From Escherichia phage vB_Eco_ZCEC15: 64,000 nt of DNA. The notes below the pieces were generated by a model. The model was given only the letters and a program-made list of their open reading frames with translations, was not told the DNA's origin and made no database searches. The translations under genes and the position numbers were made by a program. Shown here one piece after another: positions 33 through 55,075 of the stretch. Each line of letters starts with the position of its first letter. Position 1 is the first letter of the stretch. The stretch lies in sequence record PQ871103.1, one strand, 5' to 3'.

Positions 33-197
33 TTACTCTTCTTTTTCTTTAGATTCCTCTTTTTTCTTTTTAGGAATCTGTTCAGGACCTTTATTTACTA
101 CAGCGCCTGATGTTGTTCCAGTGGAGATATTTTCAGGATTACCACCTGAATCTCCAGCTACCATATCTTCTTTAATAAATTCTTTATATGTTTTCAT
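33..197 (-). CDS. small protein, 54 aa (61.1 position), N-terminus MKTYKEFIKE
   Basis: Own translation of minus strand: ATG at 197, TAA at 33-35; below the 60-aa cutoff of the ORF track; tightly packed between gene 61 start and next ORF. Confidence 0.45.
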   Translation of the reverse strand: MKTYKEFIKEDMVAGDSGGNPENISTGTTSGAVVNKGPEQIPKKKKEESKEKEE

Positions 198-1419: not shown

Positions 1420-2847
1420 CTAAAATTTTAATTCATTCGCTAAAGCATCTAACTGAGCTCGAGCGGATTCGTTTCTTTGATAGCGATTCTGTTCAGCCTG
1501 AATCTGCTGTGAACCTGCTACTTCGTTCACTTCAGTTGGAGTAGAATCTTGTTCAATTTCTACCCATTTCTGATTTCCTTTTTGAACACCCATCAAAAAC
1601 TTATTCCATTTATTCTTATCACCGTATCGTGATTTGATTTGCTTAATGAGTTGTTGTTCAGCAGCTGCTAGCTCCTCGGTTTCAATGACCGCAAGCATAA
1701 AATCGGCTGTTGCTGGAAGGCCGGCAGATTCTGCAATATCGCTCATGTTAACATCAGAAGAGTCCCAAGCTTGTTTACCAACCTGTGCTGCGGTCCAAAG
1801 AACAGTTTCGGTTTCAACAGCCAGAGCACGCAATTCCTCTGCGATAGCTTTAACAGTTGTGTAACTATTTTCTGAATAAACTCTAATGCGACAAGATTTA
1901 CAAATACCCAGATAGTCAACAATAATGATTGTTGGAACAAAATTCTTCTTGAGCTTCAATTCATTCAAGAGAGACCTGAATGTATTAGCGTCTGCTCCAC
2001 CAGTAGGATACTGTTTAACGATTAAACGGCCGAGAGTAGATTTCTCACGCCATTTTTCCATTTTTCCTTTATACTCAGCGTAAGAAATATGCCCATCATC
2101 AATGTCATCAAGAGAAACATCAAGCATATTAGCGTCAATACGCTTAGCACAGACTTCTTCTGCCATTTCCATGGAAATGTAAAGAACATTATGTCCGAGC
2201 TGCAAATAATCTGCTGCCAATGAACACAGACCTAATGACTTACCGACGTTAACACCAGCCATTAAAACGTTCAGTGTTCCAGTTTCAGCTCCGCCTTTAG
2301 TAATTTTATTTAGAATTTTGAGTCTAAATGGAACCTTACGAGCTTTATTCATATAAGATAGCCAACGTGCTTCGTAGTCATCCATCCAATCATGACCAAC
2401 GTAACTATCAAATGAAATTGATAATGCTTGGCGCATGATGTCAGGAATAGCACCAACATCTGGCATTTTCTTATTTCGTTTTTCCGGAGGAAGCTCAGCA
2501 TTAGTTTGAATTTCAATTATTTTAGACGTAGCATTAAACATCGCCCTTTGCTGAACATATTTTTCTGTTTCTTTTACTAACCAGCTGTGGTCTTCTGGCG
2601 AATCGGCCAGTTTTGAAATAAGTGTTTTTACACCAGAATATTCTGTTTCAGTAAATGAACTATTTTCTAATGCAACATTTAACGCATTAATAGATGGAAC
2701 GCTATGGTATTCATTAACATGAGATTTAATTAATTTGAATGTATTTTTAGCTGGACCACTTTCAAAATATTCTGAATCCATATATGGCCAAACTTTTGAA
2801 AAATAAGCTTGATCAAATATGAGATGAGAAAGAATAATTTCTACCAC
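1420..2847 (-). CDS. 41: replicative DNA helicase gp41 (DnaB family), 475 aa
   Basis: Walker A GVNVGKS; length and sequence match T4 gp41. Confidence 0.95.
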   Translation of the reverse strand: MVEIILSHLIFDQAYFSKVWPYMDSEYFESGPAKNTFKLIKSHVNEYHSVPSINALNVALENSSFTETEYSGVKTLISKLADSPEDHSWLVKETEKYVQQRAMFNATSKIIEIQTNAELPPEKRNKKMPDVGAIPDIMRQALSISFDSYVGHDWMDDYEARWLSYMNKARKVPFRLKILNKITKGGAETGTLNVLMAGVNVGKSLGLCSLAADYLQLGHNVLYISMEMAEEVCAKRIDANMLDVSLDDIDDGHISYAEYKGKMEKWREKSTLGRLIVKQYPTGGADANTFRSLLNELKLKKNFVPTIIIVDYLGICKSCRIRVYSENSYTTVKAIAEELRALAVETETVLWTAAQVGKQAWDSSDVNMSDIAESAGLPATADFMLAVIETEELAAAEQQLIKQIKSRYGDKNKWNKFLMGVQKGNQKWVEIEQDSTPTEVNEVAGSQQIQAEQNRYQRNESARAQLDALANELKF

Positions 2848-45920: not shown

Positions 45921-46337
45921 TTAAATGTAAATATTTTTGCCGTAATACTTATACCAGTGTGGCTTCATTAAAATTTTTTCATCGAGTCGTTGTTGACTCA
46001 ACTTAATAGCTGATTTGCATGGATTATAATCATTTTTCCATTCTACTGGAATATCGCTGATGTCAGGAACTTCAGTATCTTTTATACTGAACCCGCGTTT
46101 TAAGCATTCCGTTATAATGTCCGATTGACGCTTTCGCAAAAATTCTAACTTATCATAAAAGAACGTAACATGACCAGAACCTAAAATAAACTCGGAAGAT
46201 ATTTTAAAATCTTTAACCCGCTTACCATTTGCTACATGTTTACGAACTATACCAAAAACACGCGGCAATTCACGGTATTCTGCGATTAAATGTTGATCAG
46301 CAAGTTCAGATACTAAAGTCAAATTAATACGAGTCAT
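45921..46337 (-). CDS. denV: endonuclease V DenV (pyrimidine-dimer glycosylase), 138 aa
   Basis: N-terminus [17 protein letters not shown] and length match T4 DenV with substitutions. Confidence 0.9.
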
Positions 46338-46351
46338 TTTATCCCTCCAAG

Positions 46352-46390
46352 CAATTGTGAATATACTATCACAATTCTAGGAGAAAGTAA
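46352..46390 (-). promoter_or_regulatory. early promoter with dyad ATTGTGA/TCACAAT flanking the -10 region, upstream of denV
   Basis: GTTTAC -35, inverted repeat around -10, GGAGGG SD before denV ATG. Confidence 0.45.
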
Positions 46391-46396
46391 ACAACT

Positions 46397-46927
<531 letters not shown>

Positions 46928-50263: not shown

Positions 50264-50581
50264 TTATTTCATATTATTGAAATATTCTTCTGCGATTTCG
50301 TCGTTATCATGGTAAACTTTAGAAGACAGTTTAACATAACCTTCTGCTGTGAACATATTAATCACAACTTTTACAGTATACCACTGACCGTCTTCATTAC
50401 CCATTACTGCGTAAGTTTCAAACATCGGATGATCAGGACCGATAACTTTAATATCATTCACTGTACGACCGAAATCTTCTGAAACGCATTTCATAAAGAA
50501 GTTGAACAGTTCGCCGTAATTATCCATTTCATTCTCCAAGTTGTTTTTCTGTATCAGTAGTTGATAGTTGTATAGTACCAT
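50264..50581 (-). CDS. hypothetical protein (likely 87 aa from Met19 at about 50527)
   Basis: GGAG SD precedes internal ATG; promoter module upstream. Confidence 0.5.
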   Translation of the reverse strand: MVLYNYQLLIQKNNLENEMDNYGELFNFFMKCVSEDFGRTVNDIKVIGPDHPMFETYAVMGNEDGQWYTVKVVINMFTAEGYVKLSSKVYHDNDEIAEEYFNNMK

Positions 50582-50601
50582 GGAAGAACAGGGATGTAAA
50601 C
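50572..50601 (-). promoter_or_regulatory. early promoter (duplicate of 7742..7771)
   Basis: About 80 bp near-identical to 7717..7800. Confidence 0.55.
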
Positions 50602-50735
50602 AGTTTTGTGAAAAAAATTTTTAAAAAGTTTTAGGGAATTCTAGGGTCAGGAGGGACAATTAAAAGGTAGGATAATATATTATAAAGGGTATAAACTAAA
50701 TGATGCCTAGAGAGACAAGGAAAGGCCTAGATACC

Positions 50736-50763
50736 AAAAAGCCCCAACCTTTTGGTCGGGGCT
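50736..50763 (-). terminator. intrinsic terminator (10-bp stem plus U-run on minus strand)
   Basis: aaaaagccccaacc-tttt-ggtcggggct on plus strand. Confidence 0.6.
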
Positions 50764-50770
50764 AAGAATG

Positions 50771-51232
50771 TTATTTGATTTGTTTAGCAGACCAAATGCG
50801 GTCTTTGATGATTTTTTGGAGGTCTTCAACATACTCTAGGTCATGAGCATGTGGATTATCTTTGAAACTATGAGCTCGCGCAAGTTTCTGGCCTTCGGTC
50901 TTAATTATCAAAAGTTCTTTAAGAATTGCTTCATACCTAGAGATAATTCCTTTAGCAATATTTTTTTCTTGTGCTGCTTTAGGGTCAGCCTTAGGAGCAG
51001 GTTTACCAGAAGGTTTTTCGAAAGCCGCGCCAGTAGCAACCAGGCTTTTCCAGGCGGTGGTAACATAGTTACCCACAAAGCCTTCAGCTCTCATATCGTC
51101 GTAGAACTTGTACCGAGATTCGTCAGAAGCATCTTTATAAGAATATTTACCAGCTTTAATAGCAGCAGTTGCTACAGCGCGAACATCTGAAGCGGATGCT
51201 TCGGTCATTAAAAATTGAGCATAAGTTTTCAT
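50771..51232 (-). CDS. internal-protein-like protein, 153 aa, N-terminal MKTYAQFLMTEA
   Basis: N-terminus resembles the capsid-targeting sequence of T4 internal proteins; late promoter upstream. Confidence 0.55.
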   Translation of the reverse strand: MKTYAQFLMTEASASDVRAVATAAIKAGKYSYKDASDESRYKFYDDMRAEGFVGNYVTTAWKSLVATGAAFEKPSGKPAPKADPKAAQEKNIAKGIISRYEAILKELLIIKTEGQKLARAHSFKDNPHAHDLEYVEDLQKIIKDRIWSAKQIK

Positions 51233-51260
51233 TGTTATTTCCTGTGTTAATTAACTCATC

Positions 51261-51268
51261 TATTTATA
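51261..51268 (-). promoter_or_regulatory. late promoter TATAAATA (minus strand)
   Basis: tatttata on plus strand about 29 nt upstream of ATG at 51232. Confidence 0.5.
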
Positions 51269-51270
51269 CT

Positions 51271-51298
51271 AAAAAGCCCCAACCTTTCGGTCGGGGCT
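51271..51298 (-). terminator. intrinsic terminator closing the tRNA/stable-RNA transcription unit
   Basis: agccccaacc-tttc-ggtcggggct with GAAA loop on RNA and A5 on plus strand. Confidence 0.6.
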
Positions 51299-51305
51299 AA
51301 GCCTT

Positions 51306-51612
51306 GCGGCAACCTTGTCGGGGTTCCACCTGCTAAGGCAAGTGTTTGTACGAAACGCCGGGATTCGAACCCGGTTATTAAGTAGTTGACGCTACTCAAT
51401 ATTTTTAAAAGGCCATATCTCGACCATATCCGAACGTTCCGTCAAAAACGCTACTCGGCTTACGGCAAAGATATTTCCTCGAATCGATAATTCGGTGCGC
51501 CGTTTCTGCTGTGATGTAAGAGGGCATCAATAAACGTGAAGATTATTAACGCAATTCCTTACTCAGGGAACATCAGTCCGACGACTTACCGGTAGCGACC
51601 CGGTTTCTTGTT
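51306..51612 (-). ncRNA. stable small RNA region (species 1 / species 2, RNA C and RNA D-like)
   Basis: No protein-like ORF; tRNA-like T-arm CCGGGTTCGAATCCCGG at 51359-51374 without a full cloverleaf; position downstream of tRNA-Arg as in T4. Confidence 0.4.
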
Positions 51613-51689
<77 letters not shown>

Positions 51690-51692
51690 TAA

Positions 51693-52358
51693 TTAAAATT
51701 TCATTTTTCTACCTTTAAACCATCCTTCTGGAATTGGGTCAGTTTTCTTAATACGTTTAGAAACTTTTTCATCTAATGAATGAATCCACATCATACCAAA
51801 TTGGGAATTCTTTTCACCTTGTTGGTGTTTATTTTTGGCGTGAGATTCTTTCATTTTATTAATAGTTTCAGGAGTATGATGCTTATTTAAAAATCTGCTA
51901 TTATTTAAAAATTTTTCCCTGTATTCAGGAGTTGACCACAAACGTTTAAATACATTTGAACCATGTTTACGATATTTTTCTTGAAGTAAAATATCATTTT
52001 TAAAACGTGACTTAAACGATTTAGCTCCTTTTAAACTAGCGTCTTTCTTCTGATTTAGCATCTCAGGAATATTTATATGGTCCCATCCACCTTCACCACC
52101 AAGTTTTAAATTATACACATCTGGTCTATTTAAAAACTCTTCTGTGACAATATTTTTCTCGGCTTCAAGCATAGATTCTTTATCATCAAAATACTCTAAT
52201 ATTTCTTTAGAGAAATTTTCTATACCATACTTGTCTTGGGCTCTTTTTAATAATTTACCAGAACCCATATATCCATCATCTAAATTTTCGGTAGAATGCA
52301 CACCAATATAAATTTTATTATTAATTTTATTTGTTATTTTATAAGTGTAATGGAACAT
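51693..52358 (-). CDS. segB: GIY-YIG homing endonuclease SegB, 221 aa
   Basis: YTYKITNKINNKIYIGVHS motif; sits between tRNA subclusters as in T4. Confidence 0.85.
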   Translation of the reverse strand: MFHYTYKITNKINNKIYIGVHSTENLDDGYMGSGKLLKRAQDKYGIENFSKEILEYFDDKESMLEAEKNIVTEEFLNRPDVYNLKLGGEGGWDHINIPEMLNQKKDASLKGAKSFKSRFKNDILLQEKYRKHGSNVFKRLWSTPEYREKFLNNSRFLNKHHTPETINKMKESHAKNKHQQGEKNSQFGMMWIHSLDEKVSKRIKKTDPIPEGWFKGRKMKF

Positions 52359-52418
52359 AAATATCTCCTATTTCTAAGAGTATTTATGTTCCCAAAATAT
52401 GGCCCTGGGTGGAATTGA

Positions 52419-52490
52419 ACCACCATCTGGCGATTATGAGTCGCTTGCTTGAACCTTCCAGCTACAGGGCCTTGGTGCTGATTGACGGAA
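52419..52490 (-). tRNA. tRNA-Ile (anticodon CAU, lysidine type), CCA not encoded
   Basis: Acceptor GGCCCTG/CAGGGCC, T-arm GGTTCAATTCC, anticodon loop CTCATAA. Confidence 0.7.
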
Positions 52491-52491
52491 T

Positions 52492-52567
52492 CGAACCGCC
52501 GACGTCCTCATTACAAGTGAGGTGCTCTACCTACTGAGCTAAATCAGCGAAATTACGGAGGCGATAG
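52492..52567 (-). tRNA. tRNA-Thr (anticodon UGU), CCA encoded
   Basis: Acceptor GCTGATT/AATCAGC, anticodon loop CTTGTAA. Confidence 0.8.
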
Positions 52568-52574
52568 GATTTGA

Positions 52575-52661
52575 ACCTATGAGTCGCCGGAGCGACTGCC
52601 GGTTTTCAAGACCGGTGCATTAAACCACTCTGCCACGCCTCCAGTCTCCATACAAGGATTT
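52575..52661 (-). tRNA. tRNA-Ser (anticodon UGA), long variable arm
   Basis: Acceptor GGAGGCG/CGCCTCC, anticodon loop CTTGAAA. Confidence 0.8.
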
Positions 52662-52663
52662 GA

Positions 52664-52821
<158 letters not shown>

Positions 52822-52826
52822 GGACT

Positions 52827-52913
52827 CGAACCCACAAGGAAATCATTCCGCAGCATTTTAAGTGCTGTGCCTTTACCAATTTGACCATTCTCGCGCTGGG
52901 AATAAAGGACTCG
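52827..52913 (-). tRNA. tRNA-Leu (anticodon UAA), long variable arm, CCA encoded
   Basis: Acceptor GCGAGAA/TTCTCGC, anticodon loop CTTAAAA. Confidence 0.8.
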
Positions 52914-52914
52914 A

Positions 52915-52987
52915 ACCTTTGCATCCTGGAATCAAAATCCAGTGCCTTACCAACTTGGCTAATTCCCAATTATTAACAAAGGCTCTT
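52915..52987 (-). tRNA. tRNA-Gln (anticodon UUG)
   Basis: Acceptor TGGGAAT/ATTCCCA, anticodon loop TTTTGAT. Confidence 0.8.
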
Positions 52988-53054
52988 AAGCAAGAACCCT
53001 TGATGATAGAGGGTATTAATCAGTGCGATATGAGTTAATAATAACAAATAATTC

Positions 53055-53579
53055 TTAAAGCAAATTAAACATTTTAACGGTCGGCAAAACAATTTCTTCT
53101 TCTATATAAGAGTATTTAACACTCTCAACTACACGCAAAAAATCATAATCATAATACTCAGAAGCATTACCTAAAATATTAATAAGTCCTTCAAGCACCT
53201 TATTACTATTCACAAAGAATAAGTCAAATACACGTTCTTCATCTTCTTCAGATTTATTACCAAGATCAACTTCTATGCGAAAGACCTTTTTAATGAATTC
53301 TGGATAAAGCTGATCTGAGAACAGTCCTTCAACCAAGTATTCATAAATAAAAAGAGATTGCTCGCTGAACAAACCATTACCACAATAGCGCTCAATTTTA
53401 GTACTAGAATATCTGCTTTTAAACTTCTTTAAAAGATACTGAAATTGTAAGATTTCATGCTCTTCTACGCCAAACAGTGTTTTGGTTTTATAGTTGTCAC
53501 CATCATTTTCCCAGGTAGTGACATCAATTACGTAACCCTGCGGAATTGTAGTACCCAAACAAATATTCATTTTCACCAC
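53055..53579 (-). CDS. hypothetical protein, 174 aa
   Basis: ORF track. Confidence 0.55.
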   Translation of the reverse strand: MVKMNICLGTTIPQGYVIDVTTWENDGDNYKTKTLFGVEEHEILQFQYLLKKFKSRYSSTKIERYCGNGLFSEQSLFIYEYLVEGLFSDQLYPEFIKKVFRIEVDLGNKSEEDEERVFDLFFVNSNKVLEGLINILGNASEYYDYDFLRVVESVKYSYIEEEIVLPTVKMFNLL

Positions 53580-54507: not shown

Positions 54508-54741
54508 TTATTTTTTACGAAAAATTGATTTATTTTCTGCTGCCCATTTTTCAATAACTGCAGCAGGACCAGTAACAACAATTTTATCACCGTAATCTTC
54601 TGCGGCGAGTTGACCGAAATTATCTAATGCATCACGAAGAACTCCATGAGGCATTTCACCCATTTTATCTTTCTTGCCAGTGTAAATAAACTCAACTTTT
54701 ACATCAGCAGTTTCAGCAATAAATTCTTGGTAAGTTTTCAT
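54508..54741 (-). CDS. internal-protein-like protein (about 77 aa from MKTYQEFIAE)
   Basis: N-terminus MKTYQEFIAE resembles the T4 internal-protein capsid-targeting sequence. Confidence 0.6.
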   Translation of the reverse strand: MKTYQEFIAETADVKVEFIYTGKKDKMGEMPHGVLRDALDNFGQLAAEDYGDKIVVTGPAAVIEKWAAENKSIFRKK

Positions 54742-54762
54742 TTTGATTTCCATTTGGTTTTG

Positions 54763-54795
54763 TTTTGATAGGGTAATAGTATCACAACTAAAACC
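54763..54795 (-). promoter_or_regulatory. PeSL-like module: dyad ATAGGGT/ACCCTAT around -10
   Basis: As above with different arm sequence. Confidence 0.5.
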
Positions 54796-54817
54796 CTATG
54801 TAAACAACTTTGTGAAA

Positions 54818-55075
54818 TTATTTTAAATCTTCTAATCGTTTCTTCATCTTAGAACCATTTTTAGCAATTTCTCCTGCATCGGAGCATAATGCTAAAAGTG
54901 CTTTAACTTTAGTTTGGTCTCCTTTAAAAGATGAAGGATCGACCGCAGCAGCAAGTTCTTTAATACGAGAGAAAAGACGCTCAGCTTCAGCTAAAGCCAT
55001 TCCAAGCTTTACTTCCATACCGTGGGAAGATTCAGTGATAGTAGTTTTTGTAGCAAACTCTTTGAAAGTTTTCAT
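54818..55075 (-). CDS. internal-protein-like protein, 85 aa, N-terminal MKTFKEFATK
   Basis: CTS-like N-terminus; flanked by PeSL-like modules. Confidence 0.55.
   Translation of the reverse strand: MKTFKEFATKTTITESSHGMEVKLGMALAEAERLFSRIKELAAAVDPSSFKGDQTKVKALLALCSDAGEIAKNGSKMKKRLEDLK

What the first reader, a model, noticed from the sequence alone, without database searches (positions are those of the whole stretch)
50736..51298. Internal-protein-like gene as a self-contained late unit between two near-identical terminators
The 153-aa protein starting MKTYAQFLMTEA has its own TATAAATA late promoter at 51261-51268 and is bracketed by two copies of the same 10-bp-stem terminator (50736-50763 and 51271-51298). 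The organisation looks like an inserted cassette next to the stable-RNA genes.
Basis: partly seen in the sequence, partly recalled or inferred. Interest (0 to 1): 0.45.

Follow-up and report, generated by a model that had tools for sequence, protein, structure and literature searches.

The report
Unnamed internal-protein gene beside phage tRNAs
A small late gene that T4 itself lacks sits between two copies of one transcription terminator next to the phage's tRNA genes, and its first eleven residues look like the tag that T4-type phages use to load "internal proteins" into the head for injection, so it is probably an unrecognised member of that class at a third genomic site.

Summary
A 153-codon ORF (50771-51232, minus strand) is preceded by TATAAATA (51261-51268) and lies between two near-identical 10-bp-stem terminators. 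Both sit inside a 36-nt direct repeat, which no shuffle reproduces.

The window is an RB27/VEc20-like Tequatrovirus. T4 has one terminator copy and no gene here, so the difference is a 535-bp indel bounded by the repeat. The "inserted cassette" reading is not supported. Homologues occupy the same site, just after the tRNA/rnaC terminator, in Tequatrovirus, Mosigvirus and Jiaodavirus. At least 469 phage records carry a full-length copy. T4-type empty sites were about 12% of a spread sample. Presence therefore looks ancestral, and T4 a deletion.

The "internal-protein-like" reading is supported but not proven:
- The leader keeps Y4, F7 and L8, and ends in Glu-Ala.
- Distant homologues keep an (L)xE leader.
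- The fD1 homologue (g140) was detected in purified virions, in a permissive dataset.
- dN/dS is about 0.1-0.2.

Many genomes carry a second leader-bearing gene (187 aa) at the same site. Every database copy listed is called "hypothetical protein". Fold searches gave nothing useful. An anti-restriction role is inferred only by analogy with Ip1-3.

The parts
51266..51301 (-). Upstream copy of the 36-nt direct repeat (terminator plus the first bases of the late promoter)
   Evidence: family D2, 94% identical to 50731-50766; two matches, 0 expected
51271..51298 (-). Terminator 1: stem-loop 51275-51298 (10 bp, GAAA loop) with T-run 51271-51275. It ends the tRNA/rnaD/rnaC transcript.
   Evidence: T4 has the same hairpin after rnaC. 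PMC2330249 states that tRNA-cluster transcription terminates after the species I RNA gene.
51261..51268 (-). T4-type late promoter TATAAATA, 2 nt after the T-run and 28 nt before the ATG
   Evidence: Same offset in the Tequatrovirus copies scanned and in Jiaodavirus Mineola.
51238..51243 (-). Shine-Dalgarno AGGAAA
   Evidence: read directly; conserved (AGGAAA) in homologous loci
51200..51232 (-). Codons 1-11, MKTYAQFLMTE: capsid-targeting-like leader, with predicted prohead-protease cut after Glu11
   Evidence: Compared with T4 IPII/IPIII MKTYQEFIAE|A and IPI. Residues 1-11 have pLDDT below 50.
50771..51232 (-). CDS, 153 aa, 17.1 kDa, pI 9.3. Belongs to phrog_2280 (unknown function). Predicted all-helical: N-domain 14-67, Lys/Pro/Ala linker 70-83, helical hairpin 84-150.
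   Evidence: dN/dS 0.07-0.22 against Tequatrovirus and Mosigvirus homologues
50736..50763 (-). Terminator 2: stem-loop 50740-50763 (10 bp, AAAA loop) with T-run 50736-50740. It closes the late unit.
50731..50766 (-). Downstream copy of the 36-nt direct repeat
50572..50600 (-). Context: early-type promoter of e.8 (TTTACA-17-TACTAT), just downstream of the unit
51349..51487 (-). Context: rnaC (species 1 RNA), placed by alignment with T4
   Evidence: T4 L002 4909-5047, offset 46440

Best explanation
This is a resident, terminator-insulated late gene. It encodes an unnamed member of the T-even "internal protein" class and lies at a third locus, the junction between the tRNA/rnaC operon and e.8.

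Proposed mechanism, step by step:
1. Early and middle transcription of the tRNA-rnaD-rnaC operon stops at hairpin 1.
2. Late in infection, gp55/gp33-modified RNA polymerase starts at the TATAAATA that abuts the U-tract of hairpin 1. It makes a short monocistronic mRNA that ends at hairpin 2, so late transcription does not run into e.8.
3. The 17-kDa basic product carries an 11-residue capsid-targeting leader (MKTYAQFLMTE). The leader docks it on the prohead core.
4. The prohead protease gp21 removes the leader after Glu11, leaving a 142-residue protein starting ASASDVR.
5. The mature protein stays in the head and is injected with the DNA.
6. By analogy with Ip1, Ip2, Ip3 and Bas37_0260, it most likely disarms a host defence that acts on incoming modified DNA, such as a type IV restriction enzyme.

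The two terminator copies also give 36 nt of direct homology. Recombination between them removes exactly the 535-bp unit, which is the T4 configuration.

Shown: the anatomy, the indel boundaries, the synteny across genera, purifying selection and leader conservation.
Inferred: late timing, packaging, cleavage, injection and the target.
For: Anatomy.

Indel: T4 has a single hairpin, with the window's left flank on one side and its right flank on the other, and no ORF.

Locus states:
- 0 genes: T4.
- 1 gene: the window, RB27, fPS-2, fD1.
- 2 genes: EcNP1, ZN18, L014. The second gene (187 aa) also begins with a leader, MKTYAEFLTE|A. It is present in 165 records.

Leader:
- Y4 and F7 are the targeting positions, and position 8 and Glu10 the processing positions, in IPIII (PMC9026906).
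- M1, K2, Y4, F7, the Glu and the following Ser are invariant across the six full-length close homologues aligned.
- The homologues have MKSYAQFLNEAVLNE|AS, MKTYNEFLTE|QS, MLKFNEFLAE|G, MLEYSEFLKE|L and MKFKEFLAE|A.
- Residues 1-11 are predicted disordered.

Virion association: fD1 g140 (157 aa, 79% identical) is scored as a particle-associated protein at the strict threshold. Its neighbours e.8 (g139) and g138 are not.

Real gene: dN/dS is 0.07-0.22 against homologues in Tequatrovirus and Mosigvirus, and 0.41 against Mineola.

Synteny and conserved hairpin/late-promoter junction: the hairpin-TTTTT-(A/G)G-TATAAATA junction holds in Tequatrovirus and Jiaodavirus. Mosigvirus has the same layout, with a variant late-promoter box in some phages.

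Protein properties: basic, pI 9.3, with a Lys/Pro/Ala linker.

Functional precedent: Ip1-3 each block a distinct GmrSD enzyme (PMC12373910). Bas37_0260 is needed on K-12 carrying type IV systems (bioRxiv 10.1101/2025.11.20.689424).
Against: - The window's own leader lacks a canonical (L/I)xE. It reads L8-M9-T10-E11, four residues shorter than the commonest form. Cleavage at Glu11 therefore rests on Met being tolerated at P3.
- The fD1 proteome is permissive. 113 of 277 gene products are called particle-associated, including rIIB, DenV and lysozyme.
- The ORF at the position annotated as gene 61.1 in RB51 (window 33-197) has a perfect leader, MKTYKEFIKE, in an early-gene region, and I found no report that it is packaged. 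The leader alone is therefore not proof.
- Classical IP genes lie at two other loci, flanked by early-type promoter/stem-loop elements rather than a late promoter and G+C-rich terminators (PMC2839356).
- No fold or family match gives a biochemical function.
- No transcript data were examined.
Confidence: 0.55

Rival explanations
1. It is an ordinary late accessory protein that stays in the cytoplasm. The MKTY leader would be a shared N-terminal module, inherited or spread by recombination among small T-even genes, that does not lead to packaging in this case.
For: - The ORF at the 61.1 position in this window has the same leader in an early-gene region, and I found no report that it is packaged.
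- The window's variant lacks a canonical LxE site.
- The only proteomic support comes from a permissive dataset that also lists rIIB, DenV and lysozyme.
- The literature read speaks of only two Ip loci.
Against: - Leader residues Y4, F7 and the Glu are invariant in the close family, and the leader survives in homologues with 34-60% identity.
- Late-promoter timing matches head assembly.
- The second gene at the same locus carries the leader too.
- fD1 g140 passed the strict threshold while its neighbours e.8 and g138 did not.
Confidence: 0.2
2. It is packaged, but as a generic basic head-filling or DNA-condensing protein. It would stand in for the missing IPII/IPIII, with no specific anti-defence target.
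For: - This phage has no ipII/ipIII; denV abuts e.
- The protein is basic (pI 9.3) with a Lys/Pro/Ala-rich linker.
- Lysines of internal proteins contact packaged DNA (PMC3012670).
Against: - T2 has the T4-type empty site here and also lacks Ip2 and Ip3 (PMC12373910). So there is no simple compensation.
- All four leader-bearing internal proteins with an assigned function in the papers read act against type IV restriction systems.
- The N-domain is conserved across genera while the C-terminal half is exchanged. That pattern fits a specific binding module better than bulk charge.
Confidence: 0.15
3. It is a recently inserted mobile cassette. A moron-like unit would have been brought in with its own promoter and terminator, for instance by SegB-driven co-conversion of the neighbouring tRNA region.
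For: - The unit is exactly bounded by direct repeats and is absent from T4.
- segB lies about 400 bp away, and SegB homing co-converts flanking DNA (PMC2330249).
- The tRNA region of this window is mosaic relative to RB27.
Against: - The gene is at the same site in Tequatrovirus, Mosigvirus and Jiaodavirus, with sequence divergence up to dS above 1.
- Empty sites are a minority: 7 of 60 in a spread sample.
- GC3 of 0.30 is typical of the genome. The raised GC of 40.5% follows from the Ala-rich composition.
- The hairpin is not a dispersed repeat; the window holds only the two copies.
Confidence: 0.08

Closest known systems
[quoted passage not shown] 1994, as cited in PMC2839356 and PMC12373910)
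   Same: - A short N-terminal leader of the MKT(Y/F)xEF..E type, followed by Ala or Ser.
- Small, non-essential and variably present.
- No sequence similarity beyond the leader.
- Basic, like T4 IPII and IPIII.
- A homologue was detected in virions.
   Different: - It lies at neither of the two described IP loci (57B|trna.4, and denV|e).
- It is driven by a canonical late promoter and flanked by G+C-rich intrinsic terminators, not by early-type promoter/AT-rich stem-loop elements.
- The window's leader is one residue longer and lacks (L/I)xE.
- Packaging, cleavage and injection are untested.
PeSL cassettes (promoter-early stem-loop) of RB49/phi1 and other T4-like phages (Arbiol et al. 2010, PMC2839356; Comeau et al. 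2014, PMC4122927)
   Same: - A single gene flanked by repeated regulatory motifs that include a terminator.
- A relative has one motif copy in place of motif-gene-motif, as expected from recombination between the flanking copies.
- The flanks insulate the gene transcriptionally.
   Different: - The promoter is a late TATAAATA and lies on one side only.
- The repeat is the terminator itself (36 nt).
- It is a two-copy local repeat, not a dispersed family.
- The gene is old at this site rather than shuffled between sites.
Lambdoid-phage morons
   Same: An accessory gene with its own promoter and terminator.
   Different: It is transcribed in the same direction as its neighbours, is bounded by homologous repeats, and is conserved in position across genera.

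Membership tests
T-even internal proteins (capsid-targeted, injected) | N-terminal capsid-targeting sequence: about 10-19 residues of the type MKT(Y/F)xEF, with an aromatic residue at position 4 and Phe at position 7 | tested here: met
   The leader is MKTYAQF, with Y4 and F7. M1, K2, Y4 and F7 are invariant in the close family. Distant members keep aromatic-4 and F7, or shift by one residue. The role of positions 4 and 7 is taken from PMC9026906.
T-even internal proteins (capsid-targeted, injected) | The leader ends in a prohead-protease (gp21) site, (L/I)-x-E, followed by a small residue | tested here: inconclusive
   The window reads L8-M9-T10-E11|A12, so P3 is Met rather than Leu or Ile. 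Most homologues have canonical LNE|A, LTE|A/Q, LAE|G or LAE|A. Cleavage itself was not tested.
T-even internal proteins (capsid-targeted, injected) | Present in purified virions | tested here: inconclusive
   The homologue fD1 g140 is listed as particle-associated by LC-MS/MS (PMC8309999, Table S3). That list also holds rIIB, DenV and lysozyme. No data exist for this phage.
T-even internal proteins (capsid-targeted, injected) | Injected into the host with the DNA | not testable with these tools
   This needs labelled-phage infection or functional assays.
T-even internal proteins (capsid-targeted, injected) | Encoded at one of the two IP loci, flanked by early-type promoter/stem-loop elements | tested here: not met
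   The gene lies between rnaC and e.8. Its flanks are a late promoter and G+C-rich terminators. The window's ipI locus shows the classical elements. The statements that there are two loci are in PMC2839356 and PMC12373910. This is a feature of location, not of mechanism.
T-even internal proteins (capsid-targeted, injected) | Dispensable, and polymorphic among close relatives | tested here: met
   The gene is absent from T4, T2 and others. It is frameshifted in EcNP1 and truncated in several records. The locus holds 0, 1 or 2 genes.
PeSL-type shuffling cassette | The gene is flanked on both sides by copies of one composite promoter-plus-stem-loop motif, and a relative carries a single motif in its place | tested here: inconclusive
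   The flanking repeat and the single-copy state in T4 are met. The repeat, however, is a terminator only; the promoter is of the late type and is not duplicated.
PeSL-type shuffling cassette | The motif is a dispersed family found at many intergenic sites of the genome | tested here: not met
   There are only two copies in the 64-kb window, even allowing up to 3 mismatches.

The most novel reading that the evidence does not exclude
T-even phages would have a third internal-protein locus, at the 3' end of the tRNA operon, that has escaped notice because T4 deleted it. It would hold at least two unrecognised families of capsid-targeted, injected proteins (153-157 aa and 187 aa), expressed from a late promoter fused to the tRNA-operon terminator. 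The N-domain of the first family is conserved from Escherichia phages to Klebsiella phages. That points to a conserved host target, possibly a defence system different from the GmrSD variants blocked by Ip1-3.
Probability: 0.35. Interest if true: 0.6.

Novelty: new member of a known kind. Interest (0 to 1): 0.4.

Why it matters
Recent work shows that Ip1, Ip2 and Ip3 each inhibit a different type IV restriction enzyme. That work expects the variable proteins of "the two Ip loci" to do likewise (PMC12373910).

A widely distributed third locus would add untested candidates for injected anti-defence proteins. It is absent from the model phage T4 and holds two leader-bearing families, found in at least 469 and in 165 sequenced phage records. 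It would also correct the statement that IP genes are confined to two loci (PMC2839356).

The locus further illustrates how a duplicated terminator both insulates an accessory gene and sets the exact boundaries of its loss.

None of this changes the basic picture of T4 biology. The gene is already in databases as a hypothetical protein.

Tried and rejected
Searches that gave no functional lead:
- Pfam, NCBIfam and PHROGs gave no functional family. The only hit was phrog_2280, of unknown function.
- An exhaustive HMMER search of 1.8 billion cluster representatives found only 9 representatives, so there are no remote relatives to borrow a function from.
- Rfam found only tRNAs in 50500-53100. 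rnaC and rnaD have no match at gathering threshold.
- Literature searches by locus tags and by leader sequence found nothing on this family. Repoila 1994 and Miller 2003 are not in the held library. I therefore could not check whether this ORF is among the more than 30 IP variants counted by Comeau et al. 2007.

Ideas tested and dropped:
- Foreign origin judged by base composition: rejected. GC3 is ordinary.
- TATAAATA enrichment as evidence: rejected. The count is at chance level.
- Compensation for missing ipII/ipIII: not supported. T2 lacks both ipII/ipIII and this gene.

Approach that did not work well:
- A census using record spans from a 1.9-kb query was confounded by variation in e.6 and e.7. 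I replaced it with a 261-nt junction query.

Full report
**What is in the sequence**

The window is a Tequatrovirus. The 801 bases around the finding are 99.8% identical to phage VEc20 and 97.8% identical to RB27.

On the minus strand, a 153-codon ORF runs from 51232 to 50771 and starts MKTYAQFLMTEA. Upstream of it, in order, are:
- the hairpin AGCCCCGACC-GAAA-GGTTGGGGCT (51298-51275), whose last T begins a run of five T;
- two bases;
- TATAAATA (51268-51261);
- a 28-nt leader containing AGGAAA seven bases before the ATG.

Seven bases after the stop codon, the same hairpin recurs with an AAAA loop (50763-50740), again followed by T5. Both hairpins are predicted to be stable as RNA: -24.9 and -19.7 kcal/mol, and 0 of 200 shuffles fold as well.

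The hairpins are the cores of a 36-nt direct repeat, 94% identical and 535 nt apart. The pattern occurs nowhere else in the 64 kb, and no shuffle produces a copy.

The one part that is not significant on its own is the TATAAATA octamer: 11 are found in the window and 10.3 are expected. Its meaning rests on position and conservation, described below.

**Comparison with T4 and relatives**

In T4, e.8 is followed by a 284-bp gap and then rnaC, with no gene in between. The T4 gap contains one copy of the hairpin. Its downstream side matches the window's sequence after hairpin 2 (TTTTTGGTATCTA.GCC...). Its upstream side matches the window's sequence before hairpin 1 (...GGTTGCCGCAA). The difference between T4 and this phage is thus exactly one repeat unit. 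That is what recombination between the two hairpin copies would leave.

RB27, fPS-2 and fD1 have the same one-gene arrangement as the window.

EcNP1, ZN18 and an IMG/VR contig have two genes at this site. The second is a 187-aa ORF beginning MKTYAEFLTEAAK. It is closed by a different hairpin (CCCTATC-TAAAT-GATAGGG), which is followed by the same CTTTTTGGTATCTAGGCC flank. That second gene is present in 165 phage records at 95-99% identity.

**Is it an insertion?**

The evidence says no.

- tblastn finds the 153-aa protein in 511 phage records, 469 of them over at least 80% of its length.
- I sampled 60 rows evenly from the 685 records that match the T4 empty junction. Seven have the T4-type empty site (T4, T2, VEc74, F2, SHFML-11, N2). 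About twenty have one gene. The rest have the larger arrangement or a diverged left flank.
- In Mosigvirus APCEc01, the homologue (154 aa) follows rnaC and a similar hairpin.
- In Jiaodavirus Mineola, a Klebsiella phage, a 177-aa homologue follows the tRNA cluster. It is preceded by a different G+C-rich hairpin (GCCCCGTC-TTCG-GACGGGGC) and then TTTTTAGTATAAATA, the same junction as in the window.
- Synonymous divergence from these copies exceeds 1 per site, while dN/dS is 0.07-0.22 within Tequatrovirus and Mosigvirus and 0.41 against Mineola.
- GC3 of the gene (0.30) is ordinary for the genome. The higher overall GC (40.5%) reflects its alanine content.

The gene is therefore an old resident of this site under purifying selection, and the T4 state is most simply a deletion.

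Within single genomes, the two hairpin copies sometimes share derived changes: AG in both copies in RB27, and TTCC in both in APCEc01. This hints at gene conversion between them, but the pattern is not universal.

**Transcriptional logic**

Published work places the end of the tRNA-cluster transcript after the species I RNA gene (PMC2330249). Hairpin 1 is therefore the operon terminator.

TATAAATA stands at the same offset after the hairpin in all seven Tequatrovirus copies scanned and in Mineola, even though the spacer after it differs between lineages: GATGAGTTAATTAAC against AGTATATTAAAACCACG. Some Mosigvirus copies have TAATAAATA instead.

Hairpin 2 lies before a sigma-70-like early promoter of e.8 (TTTACA-17-TACTAT, 50600-50572). 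That promoter matches -35 and -10 signals annotated in a T4 record (row H129).

The unit is thus insulated on both sides and has only a late promoter. Late expression is inferred; I examined no transcript data.

**Is it an internal protein?**

T4 IPII and IPIII begin MKTYQEFIAE|A. IPI begins MKTFKEF...ITE|A. In IPIII, residues 4 and 7 matter for targeting, and residues 8 and 10 for processing (PMC9026906).

The window protein has Y4, F7 and L8, then M9-T10-E11|A12. In the six full-length close homologues aligned, M1, K2, Y4, F7, that Glu and the following Ser are invariant.

The commonest form of the family is four residues longer and has two canonical sites, MKSYAQFLNEAVLNE|AS. Others read MKTYNEFLTE|QS. 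Distant members, found by an exhaustive HMMER search that returned only nine cluster representatives, read MLKFNEFLAE|G, MLEYSEFLKE|L and MKFKEFLIE|A. Mineola reads MKFKEFLAE|A. So the leader survives where the rest of the protein has diverged to 34-60% identity, and where the C-terminal half has been exchanged.

The AlphaFold2 model has mean pLDDT 73. It leaves residues 1-11 disordered and predicts three parts:
- a three-helix N-domain (residues 14-67, pLDDT 83-88);
- a Lys/Pro/Ala linker (70-83);
- a helical hairpin (84-150).

The protein is basic, with pI 9.3.

Experimentally, the fD1 homologue g140 (157 aa) is listed as a particle-associated protein at the strict threshold in LC-MS/MS of purified virions, while its neighbours e.8 (g139) and g138 are not (PMC8309999, Table S3). 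That dataset is permissive, however. It lists 113 of 277 products, including rIIB, DenV and lysozyme. I count it as support, not proof.

Two further cautions apply. First, the window's own leader lacks a canonical (L/I)xE. Second, another ORF in this window (33-197, at the position annotated as gene 61.1 in RB51) carries a perfect leader, MKTYKEFIKE, in an early-gene region, and I found no report that it is packaged.

**Function**

The functional proposal is by analogy. Ip1, Ip2 and Ip3 each inhibit a distinct GmrSD type IV restriction enzyme (PMC12373910). A leader-bearing gene at the ipI locus of Bas37 is needed on K-12 carrying its type IV systems.

This phage has no ipII or ipIII, since denV abuts e, and it has two small IP genes at the ipI locus. 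Simple compensation is unlikely, though: T2 lacks Ip2 and Ip3 and also has the empty site here.

**Relation to what is known**

The literature I could read describes two IP loci. [quoted passage not shown] All 45 database members listed from the clusters holding the 153/157-aa and 187-aa proteins are named "hypothetical protein" or "uncharacterized", apart from one evidently spurious label.

I could not read Repoila et al. 1994 or Comeau et al. 2007. I therefore cannot exclude that these ORFs were counted among the more than 30 IP variants.

The arrangement works like the PeSL cassettes of RB49/phi1: a gene between repeated regulatory motifs, with a single motif in a relative. It fails two of their defining features. 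The repeat is not a dispersed family, and the promoter is late and unduplicated.

**Verdict**

"Self-contained late unit" is well supported by the anatomy and its conservation. "Internal-protein-like" is the best reading, at about 0.55-0.65, but it rests on a leader, one permissive proteome and analogy. "Inserted cassette" should be replaced by [quoted passage not shown].

It is a new member of a known kind, and of moderate interest.

Noticed in passing
window 33-197 (-): A 54-aa ORF sits next to the primase gene (61) and spackle (sp), at the position annotated as gene 61.1 in RB51. It begins MKTYKEFIKE|D, a perfect capsid-targeting-like leader (Y4, F7, I8, E10), although it lies in an early-gene region. 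It belongs to phrog_1823, of unknown function. It is either another unrecognised packaged peptide or a warning that the leader alone is not diagnostic.
   Followed up: partly
window 45921-46891 (-): This phage has no ipII or ipIII. denV (45921-46337) is separated from lysozyme gene e (46397-46891) by only 59 bp, whereas T4 has ipII and ipIII between them.
   Followed up: partly
window 54508-55075 (-): The ipI locus holds two internal-protein genes: 77 aa (MKTYQEFIAE|T, phrog_8111) and 85 aa (MKTFKEF..ITE|S, phrog_3499). Repeated blocks TTTCACAAAGTTGTTTACATA...GTGATACTATTACC (early-type promoter plus stem-loop) precede each gene, and a more diverged copy follows the second. These are the classical IP-locus elements, and they differ from the flanks of the gene under study.
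   Followed up: partly
L003 1669-2232 (-) (EcNP1); also L007 and L014: A second leader-bearing gene (187 aa, MKTYAEFLTE|AAK, pI 9.35) lies directly downstream of the 153/157-aa gene in 165 phage records, at 95-99% identity. It has no canonical TATAAATA upstream and a different terminator. Its indel boundaries fall on the shared GGGCTTTTT(A/G)GT motif.
   Followed up: partly
window 50960-50966 (A7 run on the minus strand, codons about 89-91): Several database homologues are truncated exactly at this A7 run (P0006 93 aa, P0008 111 aa, P0011 108 aa). This leaves the N-domain plus linker only. It is either a frameshift hot spot or homopolymer sequencing error.
   Followed up: no
L003 about 2801-2830 (-) (EcNP1): The EcNP1 copy of the gene is interrupted in the leader (MKSYAQF*), apparently by a one-base loss in a T run. 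The record annotates a shortened ORF.
   Followed up: no
L001 (RB27) and L017 (APCEc01): hairpins on both sides of the gene: The two terminator copies of one genome share derived changes (AG in both copies in RB27, TTCC in both in APCEc01). This suggests gene conversion between the copies. Other genomes (L006, L008) do not show it.
   Followed up: partly
window 51693-52358 (-), compared with L001 4095-4260: The window carries the homing endonuclease gene segB and a T4-like set of eight tRNAs. RB27, the closest fully annotated relative for the neighbouring gene, has tRNA-Asn and tRNA-Tyr at that place. The tRNA region is therefore mosaic within about 400 bp of the unit.
   Followed up: no
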